A stretch of DNA of 18,378 bases from Alphaproteobacteria bacterium UBA6411 (GTDB lineage: Bacteria; Pseudomonadota; Alphaproteobacteria; CAAGCB01; CAG-977). The notes under the pieces were generated by a model, which had not been told where the DNA came from, ran no database searches, and saw only the letters and a program-made list of their open reading frames with translations. The translations under genes and the position numbers were made by a program. Shown here piece after piece: positions 4 through 18,378 of this stretch. The stretch spans positions 14,308-32,685 of the forward strand of contig DJPN01000015.1 of NCBI GenBank assembly GCA_002438565.1, in the 5' to 3' direction. Within the stretch, counting starts at the first letter, position 1. Each line of letters begins with the position of its first letter.

Positions 4-78
4 TGGTGGGCGCAGCAGGGATCGAACCTGCGACCCCTACCGTGTGAAGGTAATGCTCTACCGCTGAGCTATGCGCCC
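4..78 (-). tRNA. tRNA-Val (anticodon CAC)
   Basis: The reverse complement reads GGGCGCA-TA-GCTC-AGCGGTA-GAGC-A-TTACC-TTCACAC-GGTAG-GGGTC-GCAGG-TTCGATC-CCTGC-TGCGCCC-ACCA. This is a complete 75-nt cloverleaf with a 7-bp acceptor stem, T-loop TTCGATC, anticodon CAC in a 7-nt loop and an encoded CCA. Confidence 0.92.
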
Positions 79-5381: not shown

Positions 5382-6803
5382 ATGAAGCAAATGCACTTTA
5401 CCAAAATTGTTTCCACTTTGGGTCCCGCGTCCGGTTCGCCCGAAATCATCAAAGCTTTGGCCAAAGCCGGCGTCAACGTGTTCCGGTTGAACTTTTCGCA
5501 CGGCTCGCACGAAACACACCGCCAAAACGTCGCCTACATCCGTCAAGCCGAAAAGGAAATCGGCCGCCCGCTGGCGATTTTGTGCGACATGCAGGGACCT
5601 AAACTGCGTATCGGCGTTTTCAAAGACGACTACATCGAATTGCATATCGGCGACAAGTTCCGTTTGGACATGTCCCCCGAACCCGGCGACAAAACCCGCG
5701 TCTGCCTGCCTCATCCCGAGATTTTCCAAGCCATGACGAACGGCATGGATTTGCTGCTGAACGACGGACTGGTGCATTTGCGCGTTGACGCCTTCGGCAA
5801 AGATTTCGCCGATACGACCGTTATCAGCGGCGGCCGCCTGTCCAACAAAAAAGGCGTCAACGTCCCCGGCGTTCCTCTGCCGATTGACGCGCTGACGGAA
5901 AAGGACAAAAGCGATTTGCAGGCGGCTTTGGACATGGGGGCGGACATGATCGGCCTGTCTTTTGTTCAGCGCCCCGAAGATTTGCTGCTGGCGCGTTCTT
6001 TAATCAACGGGCGCGCGTGGATTGTTTCCAAAATCGAAAAACCCGCGGCGTTGGAACATTTGGATGAAATCATCCGCTTGTCCGACGGCATCATGGTTGC
6101 GCGCGGCGATTTGGGCGTGGAAGTCCCGCCCGAAAAAGTCCCCGTTTTGCAAAAGAAAATCATCCGCGCCTGCCGCAAAGGCGGAAAACCCGTTATCGTC
6201 GCGACGCAGATGCTGGAATCCATGGTTGCAAACCCGACTCCGACCCGCGCGGAAGCGTCCGACGTCGCAACAGCCGTTTTCGACGCCGCCGACGCGGTCA
6301 TGCTGTCCGCCGAAACGGCGGCGGGGGCGTATCCCGTCGAAGCGGTCACCATTATGAATAAAATCATCATGGAAACCGAATCGCACGATTTGTACCGTCA
6401 ATATCTGGACGCGGCGCGGCTGAAGCCCGAACACACGCCCGAACACGCGATTACGGCGTCCGCCCGCGTCATGGCGGAAACGATGGAAGACGCCGCGGCG
6501 ATTGTGTCCTACACCATCAGCGGCGCGACGGCGGGGCGTGTATCGCGCGAACGGCCGTACATTCCCGTCATGTGCTTGACGCCCGACGAATCGGTCGCCC
6601 GTAAAATGAGCCTGTTCTGGGGCATCGAAAGCGTTACTTGCGAACCGCAGGATCTGCTGGTCGACGTTGCGCGCATCGCCGCCTGCAACTGCCGCAAAGT
6701 CTTTAATGCGAAAGTCGGCGACAAAATCATCATCACGGCGGGACTGCCGTTTAACATCACGGGCAACACGAACCTGTTGCACGTTTACACAATCGCCGAA
6801 TAA
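5382..6803 (+). CDS. pyk: pyruvate kinase
   Basis: ATG 5382 is preceded by AGGAG. Motifs TKIVSTLGPAS, NVFRLNFSHG, MQGPKLRIG, KIEKPAA, MVARGDLGVE, VIVATQMLESM and AVMLSAETA are diagnostic of pyruvate kinase. Confidence 0.96.
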   Translation: MKQMHFTKIVSTLGPASGSPEIIKALAKAGVNVFRLNFSHGSHETHRQNVAYIRQAEKEIGRPLAILCDMQGPKLRIGVFKDDYIELHIGDKFRLDMSPEPGDKTRVCLPHPEIFQAMTNGMDLLLNDGLVHLRVDAFGKDFADTTVISGGRLSNKKGVNVPGVPLPIDALTEKDKSDLQAALDMGADMIGLSFVQRPEDLLLARSLINGRAWIVSKIEKPAALEHLDEIIRLSDGIMVARGDLGVEVPPEKVPVLQKKIIRACRKGGKPVIVATQMLESMVANPTPTRAEASDVATAVFDAADAVMLSAETAAGAYPVEAVTIMNKIIMETESHDLYRQYLDAARLKPEHTPEHAITASARVMAETMEDAAAIVSYTISGATAGRVSRERPYIPVMCLTPDESVARKMSLFWGIESVTCEPQDLLVDVARIAACNCRKVFNAKVGDKIIITAGLPFNITGNTNLLHVYTIAE

Positions 6804-7678: not shown

Positions 7679-7707
7679 TTGACAATACCCGACATTCTTT
7701 GTATTGT
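7679..7707 (+). promoter_or_regulatory. putative sigma70 promoter of rpmJ
   Basis: TTGACA (7679-7684), a 17-nt spacer, then TATTGT (7702-7707), about 45 nt upstream of the rpmJ ATG. A perfect 8-bp inverted repeat GACAATAC/GTATTGTC (7681-7688 / 7701-7708) spans the two boxes. Confidence 0.45.
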
Positions 7708-7751
7708 CATCTAACTTCTTTAGAAGAACGTTAAGTTTTAAGGATTGTGCT

Positions 7752-7965: not shown

Positions 7966-8046
7966 CGCAATGACGGATCTTCCCATTTTCGTCATAACGA
8001 GGAAGGCTTTAGCCCGACGCGGTTATCCGTTTGCAGAGCGCCGATA
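7966..8046. repeat. REP/MITE-like intergenic repeat, copy 1
   Basis: CGCAATGACGGATCTTCCCATTTTCGTCATAACGAGGAAGGCTTTAGCCCGACG...TTTGCAGAGCGCCGATA. It is near-identical over the first ~54 nt to copy 2, which lies 121 bp downstream. It contains short internal hairpins (ATGAC/GTCAT, GGGC-TTTA-GCCC). Confidence 0.8.
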
Positions 8047-8086
8047 CAAACGCGGAGGCAGTGGATTGCGTTGTCGCTTCGCTCCG

Positions 8087-8168
8087 CGCAATGACGGATC
8101 TTCCCATTTTTGTCATAACGAGGAGGGCTTTAGCCCGACGAAGTGATCCATTTGCAGAATGCCGAATA
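8087..8168. repeat. REP/MITE-like intergenic repeat, copy 2 (abuts the prophage/IS110 end)
   Basis: Same unit as 7966-8046, with 2 mismatches in the first 54 nt and more divergence in the last ~27 nt. After GCCGA(A)TA, copy 1 continues CAAACGCGGAGG whereas copy 2 continues ACAGGTACGGGG. The homology therefore breaks at ~8168-8171. Confidence 0.8.
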
Positions 8169-8206
8169 ACAGGTACGGGGTTGACTGAGTCAATAGATCA
8201 ACCCAC

Positions 8207-9124
8207 TTAATCGATGTTTTTGCATTTAGCGTTTAAAATGATTATCATCTTTCGCATAACCGCCACAATGGCAACCATTTTTCTTTTGCCTTTTTGTATC
8301 AATTTTTCATAAAAAGCCCGCATAATCGGGTCTTTTTGAATTGCAACCAGCGAACAAATAAACAAAGTGCGTTTGACATCACATCGCCCGCCTATGACAT
8401 GGCGGACCTTTTGGATTGTTCCGCTGTCCTGTGCATACGGGGCAAGTCCCGCCAATGCCGCGATTTTTCGGCGGGACAGTATTCCTAATTCCGGCAGACA
8501 AGCCAGCAGAACGTTTGCCGAAGTTTCGCCGATTCCGATTTGAGAAGTCAAAGCCTGTTGTTTTTTCAGCAAAATAGGGTTCTGTTTGACAATCTCTTGC
8601 AATTCTTTGGACAGTTCATCAATTTCCGTTTGCAAAAATTCCGTATGCTTGCTTATTTCAAGGCGGATGCGCGGCACGGTTGACGGTGCGTTTAAGCGGT
8701 TTCTTTCGCTTTTCAAAATTTGTTTTAATTCCGTCAAGCGAAAAACATACGGTTTGATTTCATTTTCAATCGGCTGAAACAAAATCAATTTGTCTTGCAG
8801 TCTTTGCCCGTAATCCGCCAAAGCGCGCGCATCAATCGAATCGGTTTTAGCCAGTTGTCCGACAGCGCGCATAAAGGCTTTGACCTTTCGTCCTTCTGCG
8901 CGGTGAATGGCAAAACCGGCGCGATAAAACACATCAACGCAAGCGGTTTCGTATCCTCCGGTCAAATCTATCACCGCAAGGGTGTTTGAGCGACAATCGA
9001 TTTTTTGAACGAACTTTTCAATGTTTGCCGTGCTGTTTTTGACTTGCAACACTTCCCCGGTTTCCGACAAGAACACATCAATTTTTGTTTTAGAAACATC
9101 AACACCGATAAAGCGGGAAAACAT
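8207..9124 (-). CDS. IS110-family (DEDD / Piv-MooV type) transposase-recombinase
   Basis: 305 aa from ATG 9124 (MFSRFIGVDVSK), preceded by AAGGA. N-terminal RuvC-like DEDD motifs are GVDVSK, DLTGGYE and KTDSIDA. The C-terminal domain has IGIGETSANVLLA, AALAGLAP and the serine context YAQDSG. The 18-codon ORF-track extension was dropped. Confidence 0.9.
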   Translation of the reverse strand: MFSRFIGVDVSKTKIDVFLSETGEVLQVKNSTANIEKFVQKIDCRSNTLAVIDLTGGYETACVDVFYRAGFAIHRAEGRKVKAFMRAVGQLAKTDSIDARALADYGQRLQDKLILFQPIENEIKPYVFRLTELKQILKSERNRLNAPSTVPRIRLEISKHTEFLQTEIDELSKELQEIVKQNPILLKKQQALTSQIGIGETSANVLLACLPELGILSRRKIAALAGLAPYAQDSGTIQKVRHVIGGRCDVKRTLFICSLVAIQKDPIMRAFYEKLIQKGKRKMVAIVAVMRKMIIILNAKCKNID

Positions 9125-9268
9125 TTTTTTCCTTAAAATTATTAACGTGCGCGACAAACGGCACAGACAACCCATCAAGATAAAAAATATCGGTACGGCA
9201 CTCGATCCATTCGAGCTTTAAACTCCATTGCCACAGGTGCGCATACCGACAGCCACTTTTTCAGCGTG
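9125..9268 (-). ncRNA. structured ~145-nt leader of the IS110-family recombinase; candidate bridge/seek-type guide RNA (hypothesis)
   Basis: The inferred TSS lies just downstream of the 9272-9299 promoter. By eye, the minus-sense RNA forms a 5' hairpin GUCAC/GUGGC. It then forms a 12-bp bulged stem (plus coordinates 9237-9249 pairing with 9190-9201) enclosing a 21-nt unpaired segment and the hairpin CUCGA-AUGGA-UCGAG (9201-9215). IS110-group elements are known to encode their guide RNA 5' of the recombinase. No covariance model was run. Confidence 0.3.
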
Positions 9269-9271
9269 ACA

Positions 9272-9299
9272 ATGATATTTTATCGTTTAACGGTGTCAA
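9272..9299 (-). promoter_or_regulatory. putative sigma70 promoter for the recombinase leader
   Basis: The minus strand reads TTGACA (9299-9294), 16 nt, TATCAT (9277-9272). It sits immediately downstream of the hairpin and T-tract at 9312-9331. Confidence 0.5.
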
Positions 9300-9311: not shown

Positions 9312-9331
9312 AAAAAAGCTGCCGCTTTTTG
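9312..9331. terminator. bidirectional terminator-like hairpin
   Basis: AAAAAGC-TGCC-GCTTTTT forms a 7-bp stem, with an A-run on one side and a T-run on the other, so a U-tract follows on either strand. Confidence 0.5.
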
Positions 9332-9337
9332 CTTTTT

Positions 9338-9640
9338 AAAGCTTTCAGCTTTACGGCTTGCGCCGTGTTTGTCCCCCGAAACGCCCCAAAGGGGCTTGTC
9401 TTGGTTTGTAAAGGCACAGCTTCGCATAAAAAAGCGGTATCCCCGATTTTCGGGCTTTGCCCTGCAAAACGGGAGATACCCCTCCGCTTTTTTAACCTTG
9501 ACAAACCGCTTTTTCTCATCGCCGAAGGGCTAGTTCTCAAAAGGGAACGCTGACGCTTTTCCTTTTGAGAGCCCTTTGGTTTGATGAGAAAGCTCGGCGT
9601 TCGTCGGGGACATTGTTCCCGAACGGGAGCTTTGCCCCGG
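9338..9640 (-). other. hairpin-dense non-coding region (candidate inovirus intergenic region: packaging signal and/or replication origins)
   Basis: Successive imperfect hairpins lie at 9338-9352 (AAAGCT/AGCTTT) and 9383-9395 (GCCCC/GGGGC). A branched one at 9428-9493 has outer stem AAAAAAGCGG/CCGCTTTTTT and inner stems GGTATC/GATACC and CCCGA/TCGGG. The hairpin at 9517-9586 has ~24 bp with bulges and a core CTCAAAAGG/CCTTTTGAG. The hairpin at 9606-9638 has ~12 bp. No credible ORF is present. Confidence 0.4.
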
Positions 9641-9822: not shown

Positions 9823-10326
9823 TCACATTTCCGCGCTTTTTTCAAGCAGGTTTTCGACTTGCAGGCGCAAACCGTCAAAATCGATTTTTGAAGCGGGCTT
9901 AAACCGCAAAACGGTAATTCCGGCTTGAGCCAAAAACTCGTCGCGTTCTTTGTCTTTTTGTTTTTGCTTCAAGCTGTTGTGCGTCGCGCCGTCCAATTCG
10001 ACAACACAGCATTGATTTAACGCTTTGTCGAACACGACAAAATCAACGTGAGCCGCCAGAATTTTTCCTTTCGACGGAAAATTCAAAGGTTTCAGCAGTT
10101 CAATCAAAGCGACTTGCGGAAACACATAAAAATCGGGCAGAGCTTCAGCCAATTTGAAAAAGAACGCGCGTTCGGATTTCGTCATAAAGCTTTGCGCCGC
10201 ATAGGCGTATTTTTTCTTTTTTGTAAACAGCAACGCAACGGCGAAAACAATCGCCAGCAGAATAAATAAAGGCAAAAATTGAGATAAAGGCGCAATCAAA
10301 GTTTGAATCATTTTAAAACCTTTCAT
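9823..10326 (-). CDS. membrane-anchored DUF2726 (restriction-endonuclease-like fold) protein
   Basis: An N-terminal TM (LPLFILLAIVFAVALLF) is followed by TKSERAFFFKLAEALPDFYVFPQVAL...HVDFVVFDK...VVELDGATHN...ERDEFLAQAGITVLRF. This matches the DUF2726 pattern (L-T-x-x-E-x-x-F, VDFV, ELDD/G-x-x-H, RD-x-F, G-I/L-P/T-x-L-R-F). The second ATG at 10311 has the better RBS (AAGG). Confidence 0.8.
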   Translation of the reverse strand: MKGFKMIQTLIAPLSQFLPLFILLAIVFAVALLFTKKKKYAYAAQSFMTKSERAFFFKLAEALPDFYVFPQVALIELLKPLNFPSKGKILAAHVDFVVFDKALNQCCVVELDGATHNSLKQKQKDKERDEFLAQAGITVLRFKPASKIDFDGLRLQVENLLEKSAEM

Positions 10327-10365
10327 ATAGAAACTGTTTTAAAGTGCCCGTTTTAACTTCAAATG

Positions 10366-11496
10366 TCAATTCTCCACTTTTTTGATTTCCAGGCTAAGGA
10401 TGATTTCTGTTTTGTCGTTGGTATTGGATTTAGAGCCGAAGAAGTCGGGGAGGAAGGACAAGCCGGCTTTTGAACCCGTGTTTTTGGTTTCGTTCAGACC
10501 GCCGAGGATGACGGTTTCGCCGTCGTTTGCGGTGATTGTGGTTTTGATTTCCCGCTTGGTCAAAGTGGGCGAGCCGTTGACCCCGTTTGCGGTTTCCCCG
10601 AAGTTGCTCATTTCCTGCCGGACGGTCAGCGTGATGCTGTTTTCGTAGATTTCGGGCGTCAGTTCGAATATCAGACCGCTTGAGCGGTAAACGACCGACT
10701 GGACGGGCTGTCCGTCCTGATACGTCACGCTGCCGAGCGTCGGAACGTCCGCGCCGACCGTCAAAGTCGCCGTTTTGTTCGCCTGTATCCTCAAGCTCGG
10801 TTCGCTAATCAGTTTAAAGCGGTCGTCCTTGTCCAATGCGCTAAAGTAAGCGTTGACGTGGCTGTCCTTGAACGACAAAAAATTGACCAGCCGGCTGCCC
10901 GAACTGACGGCAAGCCCCGCGTTTTTGAACACGTCCGCGATGATGCTCAGACTGCTTGCGTCCGTTGTCTTTTTGCTGACCTCGTAGATTTTGCCCCGCA
11001 CGACCAATTCGGCAGGTTTTGTATCGAACGTTTTGAGAATTTTCCGCAGCTTTGCCGTTTCCGCCTTTGCGCCTTTAAAGACAATCTGCCGTTCGTCCCC
11101 CGCAAACTGCCCCGCGAACATTCCGCCCAAAGCCTGCCGCAGCTGTGCCACGGACTTATGTTTCGGCGCGTACACGACAAAATCCAAGTCCTCGACCTTG
11201 TCCGCTTTGCCGATGTAATCGACCCCGTTCCTCGTTTCGACCTTATAGCCCATGGACGACAAAAACGCCGCCAGTTTCTTTTTGTCGCGGAAGTCGTAAA
11301 CCCGTATGTTGACCGTCCGTTCGTCCGTGACGACTTCCGGTTCAAGCACGTAATCCGTCCCCAGCGTTTCCTGATAGACGGTCCTCAAAAACGCGCTGAT
11401 TTTGATATTGTCGAATGACAAACTTGTCAGCGGCGCGTTCGTTTCGGCGGGGGCGGCTATCAGCAAAACCGCAAGGCAAAGAATCAACTTTTTCAT
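10366..11496 (-). CDS. secretin, filamentous-phage pIV-like export channel
   Basis: Signal peptide MKKLILCLAVLLIAAPAETNA. The C-terminal secretin domain reads VGADVPTLGSVTY...SSGLIFELTPEI...TLTKREIKTTITANDGETVILGGL...LSFLPDFFG. The start overlaps the Zot stop (ATGA). Confidence 0.88.
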   Translation of the reverse strand: MKKLILCLAVLLIAAPAETNAPLTSLSFDNIKISAFLRTVYQETLGTDYVLEPEVVTDERTVNIRVYDFRDKKKLAAFLSSMGYKVETRNGVDYIGKADKVEDLDFVVYAPKHKSVAQLRQALGGMFAGQFAGDERQIVFKGAKAETAKLRKILKTFDTKPAELVVRGKIYEVSKKTTDASSLSIIADVFKNAGLAVSSGSRLVNFLSFKDSHVNAYFSALDKDDRFKLISEPSLRIQANKTATLTVGADVPTLGSVTYQDGQPVQSVVYRSSGLIFELTPEIYENSITLTVRQEMSNFGETANGVNGSPTLTKREIKTTITANDGETVILGGLNETKNTGSKAGLSFLPDFFGSKSNTNDKTEIILSLEIKKVEN

Positions 11497-12518
11497 AGCA
11501 TTAGACCGCCTTTCTTATCTTCCGCTTTAAAGTCGCCCGAGAAGTAGGTCACCTTTTCCCCGTCGACGTATCCCGTCATTTTCAAGCCCGTATTTGTAAA
11601 ATTTTGCGGATGCTCGAACCGCATTGCCCCGTTTTTGTCGACAAGGACGACATACCGTTCCGTTCCGCTTCTCAGCACGCCTTGAATCCGCCAGCGTTTG
11701 GACGTGTTGTCGAACTTCCGCGGCGGAGCTTGAACGGTTTGCGCCGCCGGTTGCGTCGCTTTGTTTGCTTTTTGCTTGATTTTGTTCGTGTCGAAGATTC
11801 CGAAGAACGCTTTGAACATTATCGGCAAAAACGTCAAAAATCCAACCGCCAGAGCGATGCGGAACGGCGTAAACGCATTTTGACGCGTATCCGTTACCGC
11901 CTGTCTGCCGCCGCTTTTATAAAGCTTGAAGATTTCTTCCTGGTACTTAAAAAAGCTCGGACCGGAAAGTCTTAATCCCGTTTCGACCTCGTGCACCGTG
12001 ACCGAATAGCGATTTCGCATGCCCAAAAACTTCAGATTCCGCATACTGTAAGTGTTTTCGGTCGCGTCCCTTATCAATTTCGGCAAATCGCTAAATCTTT
12101 GGCACAGCAGCACAATGTCCGACCCGACGTCCTTTTCCGTCGTATAATGTCGATGTTTGCGGAAGTATTTAAAATCCGCCTTTTGAACCTTTTCACCCTG
12201 CAGATAAAAGTTTTGCGCTTCGTCGATGACGACCAAGTCCCCCGGCTGGACAATCGACCAAGTATCCGTTTCGGATGTCGGAAAGAATCCCGGTTTCGTG
12301 ATGTCGTCGTCGTCGACCTTTAAAATCGAACCGAACTTCAAGACGGTTTCGACATCTCCGCCCGCGGGTTCAAGGTATCGTTCAATCGCCCGTTCGTCGA
12401 TGCCGTCGATGTTGGTGACGATTCTTCGTCCCGTCTTAAACGCGGGCAAGATGACATTTTTGACGACCTCGTAACTTTTGCCCGATCCGGGGCGACCCGT
12501 ATAAACCGATATTGCCAT
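11493..12518 (-). CDS. Zot / pI-like phage assembly ATPase
   Basis: N-terminal Walker A (YTGRPGSGKSYE), Walker B (LVVIDEAQ) and a central TM (FRIALAVGFLTFLPIMFKAFFGIF). The position immediately upstream of the secretin is the classical gI-gIV arrangement. Confidence 0.9.
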   Translation of the reverse strand: MAISVYTGRPGSGKSYEVVKNVILPAFKTGRRIVTNIDGIDERAIERYLEPAGGDVETVLKFGSILKVDDDDITKPGFFPTSETDTWSIVQPGDLVVIDEAQNFYLQGEKVQKADFKYFRKHRHYTTEKDVGSDIVLLCQRFSDLPKLIRDATENTYSMRNLKFLGMRNRYSVTVHEVETGLRLSGPSFFKYQEEIFKLYKSGGRQAVTDTRQNAFTPFRIALAVGFLTFLPIMFKAFFGIFDTNKIKQKANKATQPAAQTVQAPPRKFDNTSKRWRIQGVLRSGTERYVVLVDKNGAMRFEHPQNFTNTGLKMTGYVDGEKVTYFSGDFKAEDKKGGLML

Positions 12519-12521
12519 GCT

Positions 12522-12809
12522 TTACCCCAAGAACGGAACGCGGCGAACCATAAACCGCAGCAAATACGCGCTTAAAACCATGCTGAACCCGTTTGAGAAC
12601 TGCATAATGTCCAGAAAGTACCACAATCCCGCGGGCAATCCGCCGAACAGCTCGTCGAACCCCGCGAACGTCGGCAGTTTGTCGGCGATAAAGCCGATAA
12701 ACTCGTGGACGACAAAATACAATCCCGCGAACAGCACAAACTTGATGACCACGGTTTTCAAAAACCAGGTCAATCCCGTAAATATCGCAGAATACAGCAA
12801 TCCGTACAT
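12522..12809 (-). CDS. pVI-like minor coat / membrane protein
   Basis: 95 aa with about three hydrophobic segments. It lies between the pIII-like and Zot genes, as gVI does in Ff and ace in CTXphi-type phages. The call rests on position and composition. Confidence 0.55.
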   Translation of the reverse strand: MYGLLYSAIFTGLTWFLKTVVIKFVLFAGLYFVVHEFIGFIADKLPTFAGFDELFGGLPAGLWYFLDIMQFSNGFSMVLSAYLLRFMVRRVPFLG

Positions 12810-12813
12810 TTTT

Positions 12814-14577
12814 CTATGCTTTCAAAAACACGAACAGCGCGGCGATTGCCCATATCACCGAACACACGGATTTCAGCAAATCCCGATGTTGCTCCAGCAA
12901 ATCGCAATGGCTTTCGATGACGTATTCCTTGCCCCAAAGCTCAAAAGTCGGGCGATAACATGCGCTTTCGTGGTCAGGAACTTGGTAATTTTGAAGCGCG
13001 GGGAACAGGTCGAATATCGGCTGCAGTATCGCCGACGCTTCCACGGGTTCAAGTGTCGGTTCCGCCGCTTCCGGGTATTGTCCCAAGTCCAGATTGACGT
13101 TCACGTCAACGTCGATGTTGCCGTCCTTGACTGTTCCCGTGCTGTTTCCCGTTCCCTCGACCTTGCCCGCGTCGACGTTCGGCGACGTGTTCTTTATCGG
13201 GTCTTTCACGCCGTCCGTGTCGGGGTTTGTCGGCGTTTCCGTCAAGCTTCCCGTCGACGTGTCCGTTTTCAATCCCGTTCCGGGGCGCACGCCCGAACCG
13301 CTCGCCGTGTCGACTATCGTTTCCCGCGCGTCCCCGATTGTCGGCAGGTTCGGCGCAAGCTTTTTCACATCCTCCGCCGTCAGTTTCTTGCTTTCGTCAT
13401 ACGGCAAGCCGTCGTATCCCTCGGCGGATGTCGCGTCCTTATAAAGCTTGTTGACCGCGTCCGCGACAAACTGCGCGGGCAGTTCGTTTTCCAGCGTTTT
13501 GGAATCAAGCCCTTTCAGATACTCCGTCAAAGGCTGATTGAGCGTTTTTGTACTTGTCCCGTTCAGCTTGTCCGCCGCTATTTTGTTGATGTTCGGGCTG
13601 TTCAGCGTTTCCTTGTCGGTATAACTGCTTAACCATTCCGCCACGTTCTCACAGTAGTAGTTGTAGGCAAACTGTCCGTCGCCGCAATACTCCAAAAACG
13701 CCCCGCGGTGCATATAAATAAGAATGTATCCCGTTTGCTCTTCCGTTCCGTCCTTGGACAAGTATCTGACTTCCGCCAAATACCCTTGAAACACTTTTTT
13801 CGTATGGTCGTACTGACTTTCATAATCCCAATACGGCTTCAGTTCGCCCGTAAAGTAAAACGATTCCACCGACACGTCGCCGTTGTACAGTTTAAGCGTG
13901 TTGTATCCGTTGTTTTTATAGTTTGAATCGCCGTAGAATTTCGCCTGCAGATACTTTTGCGCTTCCGCGACCGTCCAAAACACGCCGTCTTGCGCATACT
14001 TTGTAATTCCCCAACCCGAACCCTCAAAGTCCGTTGTAATCTTGCCCGTTGTTTGCGGGTCGCCTTGTTCAAAATTATACGTTACTTCCGTTCCGTCGCC
14101 TTTGACGTAACTTCCGCTTTTTACCGCCGTCGGCAAACTCGCGACTGCTTCAACCGTATAAACGGCGTTTGTGATCGTTTGTGTCGTCGTTTCGACGACG
14201 GGCACTTCGTCGTTTTCCGTTTCTTCCGTCGCGACGATGATTTCCCCGCTGTCGTCCTTGGCCAGCCAAACCTTGATTTTTTCCCCGAGCTTCAGCAGGT
14301 AATTCCCCGCAACGTCCGTAATCAAATATCCCGCCAGCAGATACAGCCATGACACGGGACCGCCGAACACCGCCGTTGCCGCTGTCGCCGCCGTCGAAAG
14401 AACCGTGCTCGACCCCGTCACCAGTCGCAAACACCTGTTGTCGTTCGCGGGTATCGGCGCGCAGATTTTGGTTACCCCGCGCGACACGATTTGACGAACC
14501 GCCGCCGCTTGGAACGACGCCCATGCGCTCGATGTCAGCAGGCAAACGATGACAAATACGGCAACGACCTTACGCAT
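12814..14577 (-). CDS. pIII-like adsorption / minor coat protein
   Basis: 587 aa with an N-terminal signal peptide (MRKVVAVFVIVCLLTSSAWA). A low-complexity Gly/Thr/Asp/Pro linker (ASGSGVRPGTGLKTDTSTGSLTETPTNPDTDG...) precedes the C-terminal domain. The C-terminal membrane anchor is VCSVIWAIAALFVFLKA. It is the largest gene and sits downstream of the major coat gene. Confidence 0.65.
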   Translation of the reverse strand: MRKVVAVFVIVCLLTSSAWASFQAAAVRQIVSRGVTKICAPIPANDNRCLRLVTGSSTVLSTAATAATAVFGGPVSWLYLLAGYLITDVAGNYLLKLGEKIKVWLAKDDSGEIIVATEETENDEVPVVETTTQTITNAVYTVEAVASLPTAVKSGSYVKGDGTEVTYNFEQGDPQTTGKITTDFEGSGWGITKYAQDGVFWTVAEAQKYLQAKFYGDSNYKNNGYNTLKLYNGDVSVESFYFTGELKPYWDYESQYDHTKKVFQGYLAEVRYLSKDGTEEQTGYILIYMHRGAFLEYCGDGQFAYNYYCENVAEWLSSYTDKETLNSPNINKIAADKLNGTSTKTLNQPLTEYLKGLDSKTLENELPAQFVADAVNKLYKDATSAEGYDGLPYDESKKLTAEDVKKLAPNLPTIGDARETIVDTASGSGVRPGTGLKTDTSTGSLTETPTNPDTDGVKDPIKNTSPNVDAGKVEGTGNSTGTVKDGNIDVDVNVNLDLGQYPEAAEPTLEPVEASAILQPIFDLFPALQNYQVPDHESACYRPTFELWGKEYVIESHCDLLEQHRDLLKSVCSVIWAIAALFVFLKA

Positions 14578-14653
14578 CCAAGCCTTTCACCGCCGCCCAT
14601 CCGCAGCAGATGCCCAATGCAAAAAAACACAAATACCACCATTCAACCAGCAT
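14570..14653 (-). CDS. 27-aa hydrophobic ORF between the major coat and pIII-like genes
   Basis: Below the ORF-track cutoff as an independent start. GAAAGGGG lies 7 nt upstream of ATG 14653. The product is MLVEWWYLCFFALGICCGWAAVKGLDA. Its stop overlaps the pIII-like start by 8 nt. The size and hydrophobicity are reminiscent of the pVII/pIX class. Confidence 0.35.
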   Translation of the reverse strand: MLVEWWYLCFFALGICCGWAAVKGLDA

Positions 14654-14742
14654 GCCGTTGCCCCTTTCCGCTTGTCCAACGCGCGCGCCGCTCCCGCCGC
14701 GCACTTTGGACAAGCGGGACGTGTGCACCCGTCCCCCTCGCC

Positions 14743-14991
14743 TTAACCGCGGAACATGCTGAACAGTTTGCGAACGCCCCACACCAGGACCAACAAACCC
14801 ATAATCACGCCCGCAGCGTACAAGATGCCGCCTTTCGCGTCCGACACGTCAATCGCTTTCGCCATATCGGTCAAGGTCGTTGCGGTGGTTCCGCCCGCCG
14901 GATCTTCCGCGTGCGCCGCCCCCGCCATGAACGTCGATGCCGCTACCGCGGTCATTGCCAGTTTGTTTTTCAGATTTTCCAATTTAACCAT
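14743..14991 (-). CDS. major coat protein (pVIII-like) precursor
   Basis: The signal peptide is MVKLENLKNKLAMTAVAASTFMAGAAHA|E. The 54-aa mature part has an acidic N-terminus (EDPAGG), a hydrophobic core (ILYAAGVIMGLLVLVWGV) and a basic C-terminus (RKLFSMFRG), the canonical inovirus coat architecture. Confidence 0.78.
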   Translation of the reverse strand: MVKLENLKNKLAMTAVAASTFMAGAAHAEDPAGGTTATTLTDMAKAIDVSDAKGGILYAAGVIMGLLVLVWGVRKLFSMFRG

Positions 14992-15050
14992 TTTTCTTTT
15001 CCTTTGTTTGTTTTTCCCCGGATTCGCGTCCGGTCCGCTTCCCGCTTCTT

Positions 15051-15677
15051 TCAGCGGAAACTTTTCATCACTTTCTTTGCTCCGAACGCCAATATCGCAA
15101 CTGCCAGCATCGTTCCCGCGCCGTACAAAACCGCATCCGTAGCGTCCGCCAAGCTCAATCCCTCAACCATTCCCGTCAAACTTTCCGTTTTCGTCGGCGG
15201 TGTCCAGTTCGCCAAATCCCTGTTCGCGTATTCGCGCTGCAAATAATCAACCTCCAGACGACCATCAACCAACCATTTTCCGTTGGAATACACACCTACA
15301 TTTAAAAGTGTCTGCCGAACCCAATCGCCGTCGAGATTGTTTAAGCAAGTGCGCGCTCCTTTAGAAGGCCCGTCAAAACATCGTGGGTCTGTCGCGGCCT
15401 TGTAAAATAAACTGTTTGGATGTTCTTCAACTTCAGATTTGGGAACTCGCCGGTTTATTGCCGATAGTTCAAACTCATAGTCCGGCATTTCCGGCGATAT
15501 TTGATAATTCCGATCCGAAAAACACGAAACTTGCGCGCAAAAATCACCGGAATATATGCCCTCGTATAGAGCTTTCACAGTCGCATCGTCCGCTCCTGAA
15601 ATATTAAAATCGCTGGAAAGCGTATACTTTGAATCTCGCCCCTTAAGGTTGATTAACAGTCCCGCGTAATCGGTCAT
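15051..15677 (-). CDS. 208-aa protein with a C-terminal major-coat-like domain fused to a ~165-aa Cys-containing N-terminal domain
   Basis: The last 43 aa (SLTGMVEGLSLADATDAVLYGAGTMLAVAILAFGAKKVMKSFR) align without gaps to the mature coat protein of 14743-14991, with 14 of 43 identical. The hydrophobic core and basic tail are in the same positions. The start has an ATGA overlap with the upstream gene. No N-terminal signal peptide is evident. Confidence 0.6.
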   Translation of the reverse strand: MTDYAGLLINLKGRDSKYTLSSDFNISGADDATVKALYEGIYSGDFCAQVSCFSDRNYQISPEMPDYEFELSAINRRVPKSEVEEHPNSLFYKAATDPRCFDGPSKGARTCLNNLDGDWVRQTLLNVGVYSNGKWLVDGRLEVDYLQREYANRDLANWTPPTKTESLTGMVEGLSLADATDAVLYGAGTMLAVAILAFGAKKVMKSFR

Positions 15678-15910
15678 TCTTTAATCTCCGCCTTGAACAG
15701 CCGGATCATCGCCCCCGCGCCCGCCGCTATCAGATAACAGCACAGCACGGGACCGAACCCCGCCGCGAAAAACTCCGCTGCCGTTGACGCGTCAAAGATC
15801 GTCGGATCGCTCGAATATATATACCCCTCGACAAGCTTTAGCCCTTGTCCCTCCGGGCATATCCCCAATTCGTCCGACAGTCCTTCGACACACGTCAACA
15901 CCCGCTGCAT
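15674..15910 (-). CDS. 78-aa protein with a coat-like C-terminal TM segment (possible minor coat protein)
   Basis: The C-terminus DASTAAEFFAAGFGPVLCCYLIAAGAGAMIRLFKAEIKE shares the D-A...[FY]-A-A-G...hydrophobic...R-x-F-K pattern with the two downstream coat-like genes. It lies 3 nt after the upstream gene. Confidence 0.5.
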   Translation of the reverse strand: MQRVLTCVEGLSDELGICPEGQGLKLVEGYIYSSDPTIFDASTAAEFFAAGFGPVLCCYLIAAGAGAMIRLFKAEIKE

Positions 15911-15913
15911 CGC

Positions 15914-16231
15914 TTACAGCTCCGCCTTGAATTCCGCCACTTTTCGCAAATCGGCAATCCGCCCGTACAGCTTGTTGCCTTTGCCCTCGACGTATTCGAT
16001 TTTTGCGTCGTAATATCCCGGCGTCACTCCCGCAACCATTTGCGCCTTTTCGTTCATGAACGATGTTTCCGCGCTCACAAACCCGTTGCCCTTGTCACCC
16101 TGCGGACGCGCTTCCAAGTAGTTCAGTTTCCGCCCGAACACTTTTTCACCCGTCCCTTTGTCCACAAAGTCAAACACGTCCACGCCCGTCACCAATATCC
16201 GCTTCGTCCGCGTCATCCCGTTTTCACTCAT
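15914..16231 (-). CDS. putative ssDNA-binding protein (gV-like; by size and position only)
   Basis: 105 aa, soluble, with a beta-rich-looking Gly/Lys/Val composition. It lies between the replication module and the coat genes, where inoviruses place gV. AGGAAG RBS. No motif-level support. Confidence 0.4.
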   Translation of the reverse strand: MSENGMTRTKRILVTGVDVFDFVDKGTGEKVFGRKLNYLEARPQGDKGNGFVSAETSFMNEKAQMVAGVTPGYYDAKIEYVEGKGNKLYGRIADLRKVAEFKAEL

Positions 16232-16327
16232 CTTTCTTCTTCCTTTTCTCTACTTTCCATTTTTTCCCGTCCTCTCTCTCCCGTTCCCATGCCCGAGGAC
16301 CTCAAACATGCGGGGATTTTTTCTGGG

Positions 16328-16585
16328 TCACAAATACTTGTTTCGTATAGCGTCCCGCCGCGAAATCTCGGCTTTCAAAGACGCGATTTTCTTGTCTGCC
16401 GCCCTTATTTGCTTGTCCTTAGCCCTTATTTGCTTGTCCTTAGCCCGTAGTTCAAACATCCCGGCAATCAACCGCCAGCCTCTGATAACCAGCAAAATCG
16501 TTAAAATACAACTTGCCGCCAGCAATATCGCCGTCGTCACGTCTTCCATGTGCATGCTTGCCAATACCGTTTCTGTTAAGTTCAT
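16328..16585 (-). CDS. 85-aa TM plus coiled-coil protein with an internal heptad duplication
   Basis: An N-terminal TM (AILLAASCILTILLVI) is followed by RAKDKQI-RAKDKQI-RAADKKI, encoded by the 21-bp tandem repeat at 16401-16446. Confidence 0.5.
   Translation of the reverse strand: MNLTETVLASMHMEDVTTAILLAASCILTILLVIRGWRLIAGMFELRAKDKQIRAKDKQIRAADKKIASLKAEISRRDAIRNKYL
16401..16446. repeat. 21-bp in-frame tandem repeat (about 2.2 copies)
   Basis: GCCCTTATTTGCTTGTCCTTA occurs at 16401-16421 and again, identical, at 16422-16442, followed by a partial GCCCG. A degenerate copy lies just upstream (CTTGTCTGCC). Confidence 0.9.
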
Positions 16586-16588
16586 TTC

Positions 16589-16972
16589 TTAAAACCTTTC
16601 AAAACTGTAGCTTTTCAGCTCGTAATTCGACGACCTCGCGTAACTTTTAAAGCCGTTTCCCGACAGCGTTTTGCGGTATGACCACATATCCGCCGCCCGT
16701 TCCCGTCGCTCCAGCTTGTCAAGTTGTCGTTCCTTGTAAGCCAGATACCGCTCCGAATACGCCCGTTTGCGCGCTTGATACGCTTCCCGTTCCGCCCGCG
16801 CTTTCTTCTTTGCCGCCTTGTCCCTCGCCTTTTTGTCCGCGTCAAACAAAGCCATTATCGCGACAAATCCGAACAGCAGTATTTGCACAAACGACAGCTG
16901 TTTCGCCGTTTCCAGCAACGCCGAAATCACATCCGGCACCGCTTGCGCGATTATGTCACCTAAGCTCATCAT
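16589..16972 (-). CDS. 127-aa TM protein with a highly charged Lys/Arg/Glu-rich C-terminal region
   Basis: TM segment FVQILLFGFVAIMALF, then KKARDKAAKKKARAEREAYQARKRAY... The start (ATGATGA) overlaps the Rep stop. No family recognised. Confidence 0.5.
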   Translation of the reverse strand: MMSLGDIIAQAVPDVISALLETAKQLSFVQILLFGFVAIMALFDADKKARDKAAKKKARAEREAYQARKRAYSERYLAYKERQLDKLERRERAADMWSYRKTLSGNGFKSYARSSNYELKSYSFERF

Positions 16973-18378
16973 GCTACCGCCTCGCCTACAAACTTATACC
17001 GTTCCGCCGCAGCATCGCATTTGTCCGCGTGCTGTTTGTCGCTTTTGATTTGTCGGTAAACCTTGCCGAAAATAACTTCGACCTGCCTTTCATCGTAAAG
17101 CCCGTAGTTCACCAGAACCGACAAAGACCTTACGTCCCCGGCAATCCGCTTGATTGCCTGTGCCGCCAAAACCTGCCGTTGTCCTGTCACATATCGTCCG
17201 ATTGCAAGCCCGTAATTGCCGCAGAAAAATTGACGCCGAACGAATGTGTAAAGCGGATGATATGCCCAGCGGCTTCGGTTTTTGTCGGAACTCGGCACGG
17301 TCAAGCGGCGGATATTCAACGCTTCGCTGATCAGTTCGTTGCGGAACTCTTCGAATTGCTCAAACGTCAATATGCCGCGATTGCGCAAAAATTCGCTGAA
17401 AAACCTCACTTCAAACCGCCAAATGTTCGCTTTTGCGACCATGCCCCAAAGCTTGTAAAAGTATGTTTTGCCTGAAGCTTGTTCGATTTCTTTCGCTTTG
17501 TCGTAAACTTGCAGCTGCAAGCTTTTCTTTGTCCCGATTGTCAGCGTGTCCAATCGCCCCGATTGGATGTACATGCTCAACAGTTCATCATTTCGCGCCT
17601 TGCATTTTGCAGGCAAAACAAGCCCGTCCAGTATTGACGGCTTCAAGCATTCCGCGAATTTTTCGCTGTAAAAGTCGGTTGCAACGTCGATACGGCTTAA
17701 CCGCGCGTAATCCGCCGAACGCGGCACGCTGATTTTATCCAACAGGCGGAAAATTTGGTCGCGCAAAGCTTCTATGCCCCACTCTATCAGCCCCGCCGAC
17801 AGATAACGCACCGAAACCGCCCAATCGTTTGCCGGATTGCTGATTAAAAGCATCACGTCGTCCGTTTGAAGCATATAGGTAAATCCTTTTGCCCCGCGCG
17901 GGCTGATTTGAAATTCCGACGCACCGAATTTCAAACTCGGAATCGTGATGTCGTGCCCGACATATTGCGCCTGTTCTTGATACTGTTTCAGCTGTTCGAC
18001 ATAACATTCTTTGATTGATACGTTGAAACATTCTTGAATGGAATCGTACCCCGTCCATAACGGTTTGAAAAAATCTTCTTCCGGCTCTGTATCCCGCACG
18101 TCCCTTAGGTTTTTCGTTTGCGGCTTGTATTTGATGCACCCCCTGTTAGACAACGGGGGTGCAAAGTTCGACCCCGGCAAATTTTTTTTGCAGTAAAGGT
18201 TCAGTTCGGGCAAAATCCGCGCCACTCGGTCAAAATTAGAACCGTTCAAATATCTTGCCCGCTTTATCGCAAATTCGCCCCGTTCGCTTAAATGCGCAAA
18301 TTCGTATGTCGTATATGCCGCGATTTCTTCGTCTGTGAAAAAGTTTGCCAGAAATTCCGGTTTGTCTTCCTGCAGGTT
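16969..18378 (-). CDS. rolling-circle replication initiator, Rep_trans-like (gII functional analogue); start uncertain, possibly 5'-partial
   Basis: The motifs RIDVATDF, LTIGTKKSLQLQVYDKAKE and WRFEVRF resemble the replication initiation factor (Rep_trans) family. The ORF track starts it at TTG 18249, which has no convincing RBS. The same frame has no stop from 18250 to the window edge and no ATG in the first 125 codons after 18249. The true start may therefore lie beyond 18378. Confidence 0.7.
   Translation of the reverse strand, partial: NLQEDKPEFLANFFTDEEIAAYTTYEFAHLSERGEFAIKRARYLNGSNFDRVARILPELNLYCKKNLPGSNFAPPLSNRGCIKYKPQTKNLRDVRDTEPEEDFFKPLWTGYDSIQECFNVSIKECYVEQLKQYQEQAQYVGHDITIPSLKFGASEFQISPRGAKGFTYMLQTDDVMLLISNPANDWAVSVRYLSAGLIEWGIEALRDQIFRLLDKISVPRSADYARLSRIDVATDFYSEKFAECLKPSILDGLVLPAKCKARNDELLSMYIQSGRLDTLTIGTKKSLQLQVYDKAKEIEQASGKTYFYKLWGMVAKANIWRFEVRFFSEFLRNRGILTFEQFEEFRNELISEALNIRRLTVPSSDKNRSRWAYHPLYTFVRRQFFCGNYGLAIGRYVTGQRQVLAAQAIKRIAGDVRSLSVLVNYGLYDERQVEVIFGKVYRQIKSDKQHADKCDAAAERYKFVGEAVA

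What the first reader, a model, noticed from the sequence alone, without database searches (positions are those of the whole stretch)
9125..9299. Own promoter plus a ~145-nt structured leader upstream of the phage-borne IS110 recombinase: possible bridge/seek guide RNA
On the minus strand, TTGACA-16nt-TATCAT (9299-9272) follows a terminator-like hairpin (9312-9331), so the leader appears to be a separate transcription unit. By eye the leader folds into a 5' hairpin, then a 12-bp bulged stem (9237-9249 with 9190-9201) enclosing a 21-nt unpaired strand and a small hairpin (9201-9215). This stem, internal loop and stem-loop layout is what IS110-group guide RNAs use. Two short identities link the leader to the recombinase-distal junction. 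GGTACGG at 9192-9198 equals 8172-8178, right at the repeat/prophage break. This extends to ATATC-GGTACGG versus ATAACAGGTACGG. GATCCATT at 9204-9211, in the small hairpin, equals 8145-8152 in host repeat copy 2, and copy 1 differs there (TATCCGTT). A second AATGGA lies in the unpaired strand. Matches of 7-8 nt between segments this small are individually near chance expectation, so this is suggestive only. I am not aware of a guide-RNA-programmed integrase being described for a filamentous phage.
Basis: partly seen in the sequence, partly recalled or inferred. Interest (0 to 1): 0.8.

Follow-up and report, generated by a model that had tools for sequence, protein, structure and literature searches.

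The report
Bridge guide RNA in filamentous prophage
The leader in front of this filamentous prophage's IS110-type recombinase is very probably a real bridge RNA, one loop matching the phage's own end and the other the host insertion site, so the whole phage seems to integrate by an RNA-programmed recombinase, which I could not find described for such phages.

Summary
The ~145 nt between a near-consensus promoter (9299-9272, minus strand) and the recombinase ATG (9124) fold into a 5' hairpin plus two stem/internal-loop/hairpin modules. Fifteen homologous leaders support this fold: 97% of cells paired, 11 compensatory pairs, 0 of 500 shuffles as good.

The first loop varies between near-identical phages and tracks the flanking DNA. 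Its 3' side is complementary to the bases after the element's right end (83% own versus 26% cross-paired). Its 5' side equals the bases before the left end (74% versus 22%).

The second loop is conserved. It matches the right end TGGGTTG in the window and the left end TATTA in related phages, with compensatory changes in plain-IS relatives.

The true right junction is GTGGGTTGAT| at 8206-8197, not 8172-8178. Its GATCCATT match is the right-target guide.

The recombinase aligns end to end with IS621 transposase.

Unlike IS621, the RNA has its own complete promoter and lies more than 9 kb from the left end. The window's left junction lies outside it, and expression is untested. No paper found links bridge RNAs to filamentous phages.

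The parts
9272..9299 (-). Sigma-70-type promoter of the RNA: TTGACA (9299-9294), 16-nt spacer, TATCAT (9277-9272).
   Evidence: scores it 11 of 12. The same position carries TTGACT-16-TAACAT or TACACT (9 of 12) in related phages.
9252..9270 (-). 5' hairpin (GUCAC...GUGGC). The transcription start is not determined.
   Evidence: Minimum-free-energy fold. A hairpin at the same place in relatives (GCCG-AAAG-CGGC) is seen by eye; it was not included in the pair count.
9189..9250 (-). First module, the target-binding loop. The outer stem pairs 9250-9237 with 9201-9189.
   Evidence: RNAalifold and pair counts: 12 pairs, 7 with compensatory changes, 95.6% of cells paired.
9226..9236 (-). 5' side of the first internal loop, CUGUGGCAAUG. 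This is the left-target guide: CUGUGGCA at 9236-9229 plus core AU at 9228-9227.
   Evidence: Positions 9-10 are AU in 21 of 23 RNAs. In relatives this side equals the DNA left of the element: L036 10/10, L038 9/10, L116 7/7. The window's own left junction is outside the window.
9213..9225 (-). Inner hairpin of the first module, GAGUUUAAAGCUC.
   Evidence: 4 pairs, one compensatory (G-C to A-U).
9202..9212 (-). 3' side of the first internal loop, GAAUGGAUCGA. This is the right-target guide: AUGG at 9210-9207 pairs with RT CCAT, and core AU is at 9206-9205. C9204 is complementary to the G that precedes the core at the element's right end, which is the position of a handshake guide.
   Evidence: Own guide versus own flank matches 60 of 72 positions, against 26% for cross pairs; 69 of 362,880 permutations do as well. 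The window flank CTAT matches 3 of 4. AUC is present in 22 of 23 RNAs. The handshake concept comes from PMC11208158.
9126..9186 (-). Second module, the donor-binding loop. The outer stem pairs 9186-9177 with 9134-9126, and the inner hairpin is 9165-9146. The recombinase Shine-Dalgarno AAGGA (9134-9130) lies in the 3' arm.
   Evidence: helices 3 and 4 are 99% and 96% paired. The module is almost invariant among phage relatives.
9166..9176 (-). 5' side of the second loop, GAUGGGUUGUC. This is the left-donor guide; UGGGUUG (9174-9168) equals the right-end terminus TGGGTTG (8205-8199).
   Evidence: Read directly. L037 has UGAGUUG in the RNA and TGAGTTG at its right end, a compensatory change.
9135..9146 (-). 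3' side of the second loop, GUUAAUAAUUUU. This is the right-donor guide; its reverse complement is AT-TATTAAC.
   Evidence: The left ends of related phages start AT|TATTAC (L035, L002, L116, L079). Plain-IS relatives covary: UAACA with TGTTA, and GAACA with TGTTC. The window's own left end is not in the window.
8207..9124 (-). IS110-family recombinase, 305 aa.
   Evidence: Pfam DEDD_Tnp_IS110 plus Transposase_20. It aligns with IS621 transposase 8wt6 at E = 9e-27 over residues 4-296. D9, D53, D95, D98 and S234 align with IS621 D11, E60, D102, D105 and S241.
8197..8206 (-). Right-end terminus of the element, GTGGGTTGAT, with core AT at 8198-8197. The prophage/host junction is 8197|8196.
   Evidence: The terminus is shared by all homologues and sequences diverge directly after it. 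The identical recombinase and RNA sit at three different flanks that diverge exactly here.
8193..8196 (-). Right half of the target actually used, CTAT; the guide predicts CCAT.
7966..8165 (+). Two 79-nt REP-like host repeats (7966-8044 and 8087-8165). Copy 2 carries AT-CCAT, the right half-site for this RNA.
   Evidence: The homologous repeat next to the 97% relative L004 carries the full predicted 14-mer CTGTGGCAATCCAT.
9823..18378 (-). Filamentous-phage genes that form the cargo: DUF2726-like gene, pIV secretin, Zot-like ATPase, a 587-aa protein, small proteins, and a replication gene that runs off the window.
   Evidence: PHROGs. Gene content of related contigs.

Best explanation
The segment 9270-9125 (minus strand) encodes a bridge RNA of the IS110-group type. 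It programmes the downstream DEDD/Ser recombinase to integrate the whole filamentous phage.

Proposed mechanism, each step marked shown or inferred:
1. A complete promoter (9299-9272) transcribes an RNA of about 145 nt that abuts the recombinase ATG. The promoter motif is shown. Transcription and any processing are inferred.
2. The RNA folds into a 5' hairpin and two stem/internal-loop/hairpin modules. This is shown by covariation.
3. The conserved second loop pairs with the phage's own attachment site on the double-stranded circular replicative form. Its 5' side equals the right-end terminus TGGGTTG, which is shown in the window. Its 3' side is complementary to AT-TATTA at the left end, which is shown in related phages and is untestable in the window.
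4. The variable first loop pairs with the host target. Its 5' side CUGUGGCA-AU equals the left target. Its 3' side is complementary to AT-CCAT, the right target. The predicted site is therefore CTGTGGCA-AT-CCAT. The pairing rule is shown statistically across relatives. For the window only the right half can be checked: AT-CTAT, 3 of 4 non-core positions.
5. The recombinase exchanges strands at the shared AT core and joins the right end to the right target. This is inferred from homology to IS621.
6. Point changes in the first loop retarget the phage. Closely related phages differ mainly in this loop, and their flanks differ accordingly.

The targets appear to lie in REP-like host repeats.
For: Protein: IS110-family domains, a full-length match to IS621 transposase, and conserved catalytic positions.

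Structure: 15 leaders give 97% paired cells and 11 pairs with compensatory changes. None of 500 shuffles does as well, and slid controls give 34-53% pairing.

Architecture: a 5' stem-loop followed by a variable loop and then a conserved loop. This is the order described for IS621, and the RNA ends at the ATG as in IS621.

Right-target guide versus flank: 60 of 72 positions match for own pairs, against 26% for cross pairs; 69 of 362,880 class permutations do as well.

Left-target guide versus left flank: 43 of 58 positions match, against 22% for cross pairs; 1 of 120 permutations does as well. L036 matches 10 of 10.

Donor guides: UGGGUUG equals the right end in the window. Compensatory variants are UGAGUUG with TGAGTTG (L037), UAAUA with TATTA (phages), UAACA with TGTTA (IS-A, IS-B, L037) and GAACA with TGTTC (L038).

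The whole phage is the mobile unit. Contigs L035 (8,618 nt), L002 (10,156 nt) and L116 (8,634 nt) run from TATTAC to GTGGGTTGAT plus 2-3 nt. L079 shows host DNA abutting TATTAC.

Mobility of this exact element: the identical recombinase and RNA occur at three different right flanks.

The predicted 14-mer occurs exactly once in 656 kb of fetched loci, in a host repeat beside the 97% relative.

First-loop columns are enriched for variation among close relatives.
Against: There is no expression, processing or binding evidence.

The window's left end and left target lie outside the window, so the left-target and right-donor pairings are not verified for this copy.

The window's own right target matches only 3 of 4 non-core positions. 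Other insertions of the identical element match 3 of 4 and 2 of 4, so specificity looks looser than reported for IS621, or some flanks were later rearranged.

The 5' side of the second loop does not match the AT core (UC in the window).

Two loci fit poorly: L007 right flank 1 of 4 and L120 left flank 2 of 8 non-core positions.

Rfam 15 gives no hit. My model built from this clade does not reach IS621, so the link to IS621's RNA rests on architecture and on protein homology.

Related recombinase-less phage variants exist (L140, L135), so the module is accessory to the phage.
Confidence: 0.85

Rival explanations
1. The RNA and recombinase form a stand-alone IS110-type insertion sequence, or a small mobile module, that merely sits at the edge of the prophage. 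In that case the RNA guides only the module's movement and not phage integration.
For: A 2.4-kb mini-element (DUF2726 gene, RNA and recombinase) with its own left end exists in L036 and L006. Related phage contigs L140 and L135 lack the module altogether. Plain IS relatives with 42-50% identical recombinases exist. The window's left end is unseen.
Against: No left-end-like sequence (ATTATTAC and near variants) lies between the RNA and the window end. Three phage-length contigs are bounded by TATTAC and GTGGGTTGAT, and L079 shows host DNA next to the phage's left end, with that flank matching its left-target guide at 7 of 10 positions. The right-donor guide of the phage clade (UAAUA) matches the phage left end TATTA, not the TGTTA of the plain IS elements.
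Confidence: 0.07
2. The leader is an ordinary structured 5' UTR that controls recombinase translation, for example by sequestering the ribosome-binding site. It has no guide function, and the sequence matches to flanks are coincidental.
For: The Shine-Dalgarno sequence lies in the last stem. There is no Rfam hit.
Against: Loop-to-flank agreement across independent insertions and lineages far exceeds permuted pairings. There are compensatory changes between loop sides and element ends. Hypervariability is confined to the first loop. A translational role could coexist with guide function.
Confidence: 0.04
3. The system is a relic. The RNA was once a bridge RNA, but this prophage copy is fixed and no longer mobile.
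For: The right-target match is imperfect (3 of 4). Contigs often break inside the phage. The window's left end is unknown.
Against: The recombinase ORF is intact with its catalytic residues. The promoter scores 11 of 12. The identical protein and RNA are found at three distinct chromosomal flanks in different assemblies.
Confidence: 0.04

Closest known systems
IS621 / IS110-group bridge RNA with its bridge recombinase (Durrant et al. 2024, PMC11208160; Hiraizumi et al. 2024, PMC11208158)
   Same: The recombinase is a DEDD RuvC-like plus Tnp (Ser) protein, E = 9e-27 to 8wt6. The RNA lies directly 5' of the gene and ends at the ATG. It has a 5' stem-loop, then a variable target-binding loop, then a conserved donor-binding loop. 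The 5' loop sides have the sense of the top strand, and the 3' loop sides are complementary to it. A dinucleotide core is shared by target and donor. There is a conserved handshake-like base next to the right-target guide. Targets lie in REP-like repeats.
   Different: The core is AT, not CT. The left-target guide is 8+2 nt and the right-target guide 2+4 nt. The RNA is about 145 nt, not 177 nt. The RNA has its own complete promoter rather than one assembled across the circle junction. The left end lies at least 9 kb away, beyond a whole inovirus genome, instead of tens of nt upstream. The left-donor guide does not match the core. My clade model does not detect IS621's RNA.
Plain IS relatives found here: L038, IS-A (L120-122), IS-B (L123-126)
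   Same: They have the same RNA family by covariance model (E from 7e-07 to 4e-14). They share the right end (G/C)TGGGTTGAT and the same loop-to-flank rules.
   Different: They are 1.1-1.6 kb elements. The left end lies 20-80 nt upstream of the RNA. The reconstructed circle junction forms TTGATT-17-TATAAT, TATATT or TATAAA (9-10 of 12). The equivalent in the phages is weaker, 8 of 12.
Filamentous phages that carry IS110-family 'transposases': Neisseria Nf/MDA (targets dRS3 repeats, CT motif; PMC7058167), Acinetobacter Af1 (PMC11209303), Thermus phiOH16/Zuza and human 'Inovirus D_HF' records
   Same: They are inoviruses whose last gene is an IS110-family recombinase. They insert into repeats and occur in several copies per genome.
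   Different: Those recombinases are only 22-32% identical to this one. The papers found describe a transposase or integrase and a target repeat, but no guide RNA.
seekRNA of IS1111-group elements
   Same: It is an RNA-guided member of the IS110 family.
   Different: In IS1111 elements the RNA lies 3' of the recombinase, in a long right end (PMC11208160). Here the right end is only 10 nt past the stop codon and the RNA lies 5' of the gene.
XerCD/dif hijacking by CTXphi-type inoviruses (from my own knowledge)
   Same: It is a route by which a filamentous phage integrates site-specifically.
   Different: That route uses host tyrosine recombinases and a folded single-stranded attP. It involves no phage recombinase and no guide RNA.

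Membership tests
IS110-group bridge RNA system | An IS110-family recombinase (DEDD RuvC-like domain plus Tnp domain with catalytic Ser) is encoded next to the RNA. | tested here: met
   Pfam PF01548 plus PF02371. Full-length alignment to IS621 transposase 8wt6. D9, D53, D95, D98 and S234 align to D11, E60, D102, D105 and S241. The second acidic residue is D rather than E.
IS110-group bridge RNA system | [quoted passage not shown] | tested here: met
   The layout is as described in PMC11208160.
IS110-group bridge RNA system | First loop: the 5' side equals the left target (top strand), the 3' side is complementary to the right target, and both covary with insertion sites. | tested here: met
   Across relatives the right-target match is 83% versus 26% and the left-target match is 74% versus 22%. 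In the window itself the right target matches core plus 3 of 4. The left target is not testable because the left junction is outside the window.
IS110-group bridge RNA system | Second loop: its sides match the joined right-end/left-end donor. | tested here: met
   UGGGUUG (9174-9168) equals TGGGTTG (8205-8199) in the window. The right-donor guide matches the left end in L035, L002, L116 and L079, and compensatory variants occur in L037, L038, IS-A and IS-B. The window's left end is not available.
IS110-group bridge RNA system | A core dinucleotide is shared by target and donor and is represented in all four guide segments. | tested here: inconclusive
   AU/AT is present in the left-target, right-target and right-donor guides and at both junctions. 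The left-donor guide has UC, CU or UU at the core position. L038 has GT at its left junction and AT at its right junction.
IS110-group bridge RNA system | The promoter for the RNA is assembled across the right-end/left-end junction of the excised circle. | tested here: not met
   The RNA has a complete promoter at 9299-9272, and the left end is not within 9 kb. Plain IS relatives do assemble a 9-10 of 12 junction promoter. The phage junction scores only 8 of 12 and would face the replication gene.
IS110-group bridge RNA system | Match to a published or curated covariance model of bridge RNAs. | not testable with these tools
   Rfam 15 gave no hit in the leader at gathering score or at E <= 10. 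I could not establish whether Rfam holds a bridge-RNA family. The Durrant et al. models are not available here.
IS110-group bridge RNA system | The RNA is expressed, is bound by the recombinase, and is required for recombination. | not testable with these tools
   This needs RNA-seq or Northern blots, binding assays and recombination assays.
IS1111-group seekRNA system | The RNA is encoded 3' of the recombinase in a long right end, with long subterminal inverted repeats. | tested here: not met
   The right end finishes 10 nt after the stop codon. The RNA lies 5' of the gene.
Inovirus (filamentous phage) prophage | Zot-like assembly ATPase, pIV-type secretin, small coat-like proteins and a replication initiator, in one orientation and about 8-10 kb in size. 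| tested here: met
   PHROGs phrog_197 (Zot-like) and phrog_1012 (protein IV). Related 8.6-10.2 kb contigs carry Zot, Secretin and DUF2523.

The most novel reading that the evidence does not exclude
Filamentous phages of several unrelated lineages may have captured bridge-RNA recombinases as programmable integrases. This clade is the worked example; the Acinetobacter-like L012-L017 group and Neisseria-type saliva inoviruses are candidates. Such phages would choose, and could evolve to change, their chromosomal attachment site by mutating about a dozen RNA nucleotides that usually match host REP-like or dRS3-like repeats. To do this, the RNA was uncoupled from the circle-junction promoter and given its own. 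This would explain the long-known multi-site, repeat-directed integration of Nf/MDA-type phages. It would also provide natural bridge systems that already move 8-10 kb cargos.
Probability: 0.45. Interest if true: 0.8.

Novelty: new variant of a known kind. Interest (0 to 1): 0.7.

Why it matters
Bridge RNAs have been described for small insertion sequences of 1-2 kb. Here the same RNA and recombinase logic appears to move an entire 8-10 kb virus.

The regulatory wiring is changed. The RNA has a constitutive promoter of its own, and the donor site is split from the RNA by the whole phage genome.

The finding offers a mechanism for how IS110-carrying inoviruses pick repeat-type attachment sites. 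It shows natural retargeting between near-identical phages. It also points to compact, cargo-tolerant bridge systems, with an AT core and an 8+2/2+4 guide layout, that could be tested as genome-engineering tools.

It yields directly testable predictions: donor GTGGGTTG-AT-TATTAC and target CTGTGGCA-AT-CCAT.

Tried and rejected
- Rfam at gathering score and at E <= 10 found nothing in the leader; the only hits were a tRNA elsewhere and weak terminator-like matches.
- Nucleotide search of the phage database with the region found no match. The conserved 22-mer of the second loop has no match in IMG/VR, so this clade is absent from the viral collections.
It is possible in the window only (CUCGA/UCGAG) and is not conserved in L002-type leaders.
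- RNAalifold's extra pairs GUUG/UAAU inside the second loop were dropped as probable guide segments.
- I searched the window for a left end, using GATTATTACT with up to 2 mismatches, and found nothing meaningful.
- I tried to reach the window's left junction through exact-protein look-ups. The contigs break inside the phage. L140 and L135 turned out to be recombinase-less variants, not left junctions.
- The clade covariance model does not detect IS621's RNA.
- I downgraded the idea that the phage circle junction forms a strong promoter for the replication gene. It scores only 8 of 12, against 9-10 of 12 in plain IS relatives.
- Neisseria-type inovirus L128 was inspected by eye only, and no guide/att assignment was achieved.

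Full report
CONTEXT. On its minus strand the window carries a filamentous prophage. PHROGs identifies a Zot-like ATPase (11493-12518) and a protein-IV secretin (10366-11496). There are further phage-family proteins and a replication gene that runs off the window end. The last phage gene is a 305-aa IS110-family recombinase (9124-8207). It has Pfam DEDD_Tnp_IS110 plus Transposase_20. It aligns over residues 4-296 with the IS621 transposase of PDB 8wt6 (E = 9e-27) and with ISCro4. The residues aligned with IS621's catalytic D11, E60, D102, D105 and S241 (PMC11208158) are D9, D53, D95, D98 and S234. All five are invariant or nearly invariant in 23 relatives. Host DNA follows, with two REP-like 79-nt repeats and, farther on, a tRNA.

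OBSERVATION. The promoter TTGACA-16-TATCAT at 9299-9272 is real and scores 11 of 12. The leader folds more stably than shuffles, z = -2.8. The terminator at 9312-9331 is weak and is not called.

HOMOLOGOUS LEADERS AND STRUCTURE. I recovered loci whose recombinases are 93-97% identical (L001, L004, L127), 68-71% identical (L002, L005, L006, L007, L035, L036, L079, L116-L119) and 42-50% identical (L037, L038, L120-L126). Several are phage-length contigs with Zot, secretin and DUF2726 genes. Fifteen leaders align well. RNAalifold and an explicit pair count support the following fold:
- an outer stem (window 9250-9237 with 9201-9189);
- an 11 + 11-nt internal loop around a hairpin (9225-9213);
- a second module (9186-9177 with 9134-9126), again with an internal loop around a hairpin (9165-9146).

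Overall 97% of cells are paired and 11 pairs carry compensatory changes. None of 500 shuffles does as well, and slid controls give 34-53% pairing. This layout is a 5' stem-loop, then a variable loop, then a conserved loop, ending at the ATG. It is the layout described for IS621's bridge RNA. I verified the IS621 RNA and its position before the IS621 gene in E. coli.

WHERE THE ELEMENT ENDS. All homologues share stop codon plus GTGGGTTGAT and diverge directly afterwards. The identical recombinase and identical RNA occur at three different right flanks that diverge exactly after GAT: CTATTGAC (window), CCAACCGT (L130) and TCAAACTT (L131). The junction in the window is therefore 8197|8196, not 8172-8178. 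Phage contigs L035, L002 and L116 begin at (AAAAAAT)TATTAC and end at GTGGGTTGAT plus 2-3 nt. L079 shows host DNA abutting TATTAC. The mobile unit in these relatives is therefore the whole phage, running from AT|TATTAC to GTGGGTTG|AT.

GUIDE LOGIC. Durrant et al. state that the left guides pair with the bottom strand and so have top-strand sense. The right guides pair with the top strand, and the core is included. I applied that rule to 23 RNAs aligned by a covariance model built here.
1. The 3' side of the first loop, read as its reverse complement, is G-AT-NNNN. The four bases after AT match the element's own right flank at 60 of 72 positions, against 26% for cross-class pairings. Only 69 of 362,880 label permutations do as well.
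2. The 5' side of the first loop carries AU at positions 9-10 in 21 of 23 RNAs. Its first eight bases match the DNA left of the element at 43 of 58 positions, against 22% for cross pairings; 1 of 120 permutations does as well. Examples are L036 GTAAAGTTAT| at 10 of 10, L038 at 9 of 10 and L116 at 7 of 7.
3. The 5' side of the second loop contains UGGGUUG, which equals the right-end TGGGTTG. L037 has UGAGUUG in the RNA and TGAGTTG at its right end.
4. The 3' side of the second loop is complementary to AT plus the left end. The pairs are UAAUA with TATTA in phages, UAACA with TGTTA in IS-A, IS-B and L037, and GAACA with TGTTC in L038.
5. The base after the core complement in the right-target guide is C in 22 of 23 RNAs. 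It is complementary to the invariant G that precedes the core at the right end. That is the position of the handshake guide described for IS621.

Among close relatives, the first-loop columns are the most variable part of the RNA. For example, window CUGUGGCA, L001 CUGCGGCA, L004 CUAAAGCA and L127 CUGAAGCA sit in otherwise near-identical RNAs.

THE WINDOW COPY. The left-target guide is CUGUGGCA-AU (9236-9227). The right-target guide is AUGG plus AU (9210-9205). The predicted target is CTGTGGCA-AT-CCAT. The flank actually used is AT-CTAT (8198-8193), so the core and 3 of 4 positions match. The exact 14-mer occurs once in the 656 kb of fetched loci. It lies in a REP-like repeat 46 bp from the right end of the 97% relative L004. 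The window's own repeats carry the AT-CCAT half only.

Its GGTACGG (9192-9198) lies in the stem and is a chance match. The left end is outside the window: nothing like ATTATTAC lies between the RNA and 18378. Attempts to reach it failed.

DIFFERENCES FROM IS621-TYPE ELEMENTS. In the plain IS relatives the left end lies 20-80 nt upstream of the RNA. Their reconstructed circle junction forms TTGATT-17-TATAAT, TATATT or TATAAA, scoring 9-10 of 12. That is the junction-promoter arrangement known for IS110 elements. In the phages the RNA has its own promoter at a conserved position, scoring 11 of 12 in the window and 9 of 12 in the other lineages. The left end is separated from the RNA by the whole phage genome. 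The junction motif scores only 8 of 12 and would face the replication gene. The core is AT. The guides are 8+2 and 2+4 nt. The left-donor guide does not cover the core. The Shine-Dalgarno sequence lies in the last stem.

LITERATURE. Inoviruses with IS110-family 'transposases' are known. They include Neisseria Nf/MDA integrating into dRS3 repeats and Acinetobacter Af1. Thermus phages and human 'Inovirus D_HF' records also carry such genes, all at most 32% identical to this one. No paper in the searchable library mentions bridge RNAs or bridge recombinases together with filamentous phages, dRS3 or prophage integration. A second inovirus lineage (L012 versus L014-L017) has a two-module leader with five compensatory pairs in its first stem, which suggests the arrangement is general.

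VERDICT. The leader is a bridge RNA of the IS110-group kind, and here it acts as the guide of a phage integrase. The fold and the guide rules are shown by comparative data. Expression, processing, catalysis and the window's own left junction remain inferred. I rate it a new variant of a known kind, with interest 0.7.

Noticed in passing
window 7966-8044 and 8087-8165: Two 79-nt REP-like direct repeats, 90% identical. Copy 2 carries the AT-CCAT half-site of the RNA's predicted target. The related repeat in L004 (2289-2302, minus strand) carries the full predicted 14-mer. The phage seems tuned to a host repeat family.
   Followed up: partly
L130 2428-2440; L131 2606-2620; window 8197: The identical recombinase and identical RNA are found at three different chromosomal right flanks (CTAT, CCAA, TCAA after the AT core). 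This exact element has therefore moved, and its right-target specificity is loose.
   Followed up: yes
L036 5950-8400 (also L006); L002 about 7705-7716: A 2.4-kb mini-element (DUF2726 gene, RNA and recombinase) has its own left end TTTTAC. Its left flank matches its left-target guide 10 of 10. The full phage L002 carries an internal donor-like GTTGAT|TTTTAC at the same place, a possible alternative left end.
   Followed up: partly
L140 1-100; L135 1-40; window about 9405-9311: In related phage contigs, the sequence upstream of the RNA promoter continues directly into the phage's left arm (..GCGACAGCTTTTT|ACAACG..) with no RNA or recombinase. The integration module is therefore an accessory insertion whose upstream boundary lies near window 9311.
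   Followed up: partly
L012 4462-4647; L015 6257-6442; L019 about 6600-6797; L128 1255-1475: Distant inovirus lineages with IS110-type genes (24-32% identity) also have two-module leaders. L012 versus L015 show five compensatory pairs in the first stem, with differences in the loop. L019 and the saliva Inovirus D_HF6_34 look similar by eye.
   Followed up: partly
L120, L121, L122: Three contigs of the same plain IS: L122 combines the left flank of L121 with the right flank of L120. This suggests either recombination between IS copies or a chimeric assembly.
   Followed up: no
window 9126-9134: The recombinase Shine-Dalgarno AAGGA lies in the 3' arm of the donor-binding module's outer stem. Folding or protein binding of the RNA could therefore gate translation.
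   Followed up: no
window about 9427-9490 (minus strand): By eye (not folded), a long G+C-rich hairpin followed by a T run lies about 130 nt upstream of the RNA promoter (GCGGAGGGGTATCTCCCG...CGGGGATACCGCTTTTTT). The same sequence recurs in L001, L004 and L005. It is a better candidate than 9312-9331 for ending upstream transcription, or it may belong to the phage intergenic region.
   Followed up: no
window 7-78 (minus strand): A tRNA gene (68.5 bits), unrelated to the integration site.
   Followed up: no
L004 (record title): The 97% relative sits on a contig labelled Limosilactobacillus gorillae, whereas other relatives are labelled Alphaproteobacteria MAGs. The contig is probably mis-binned.
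   Followed up: no
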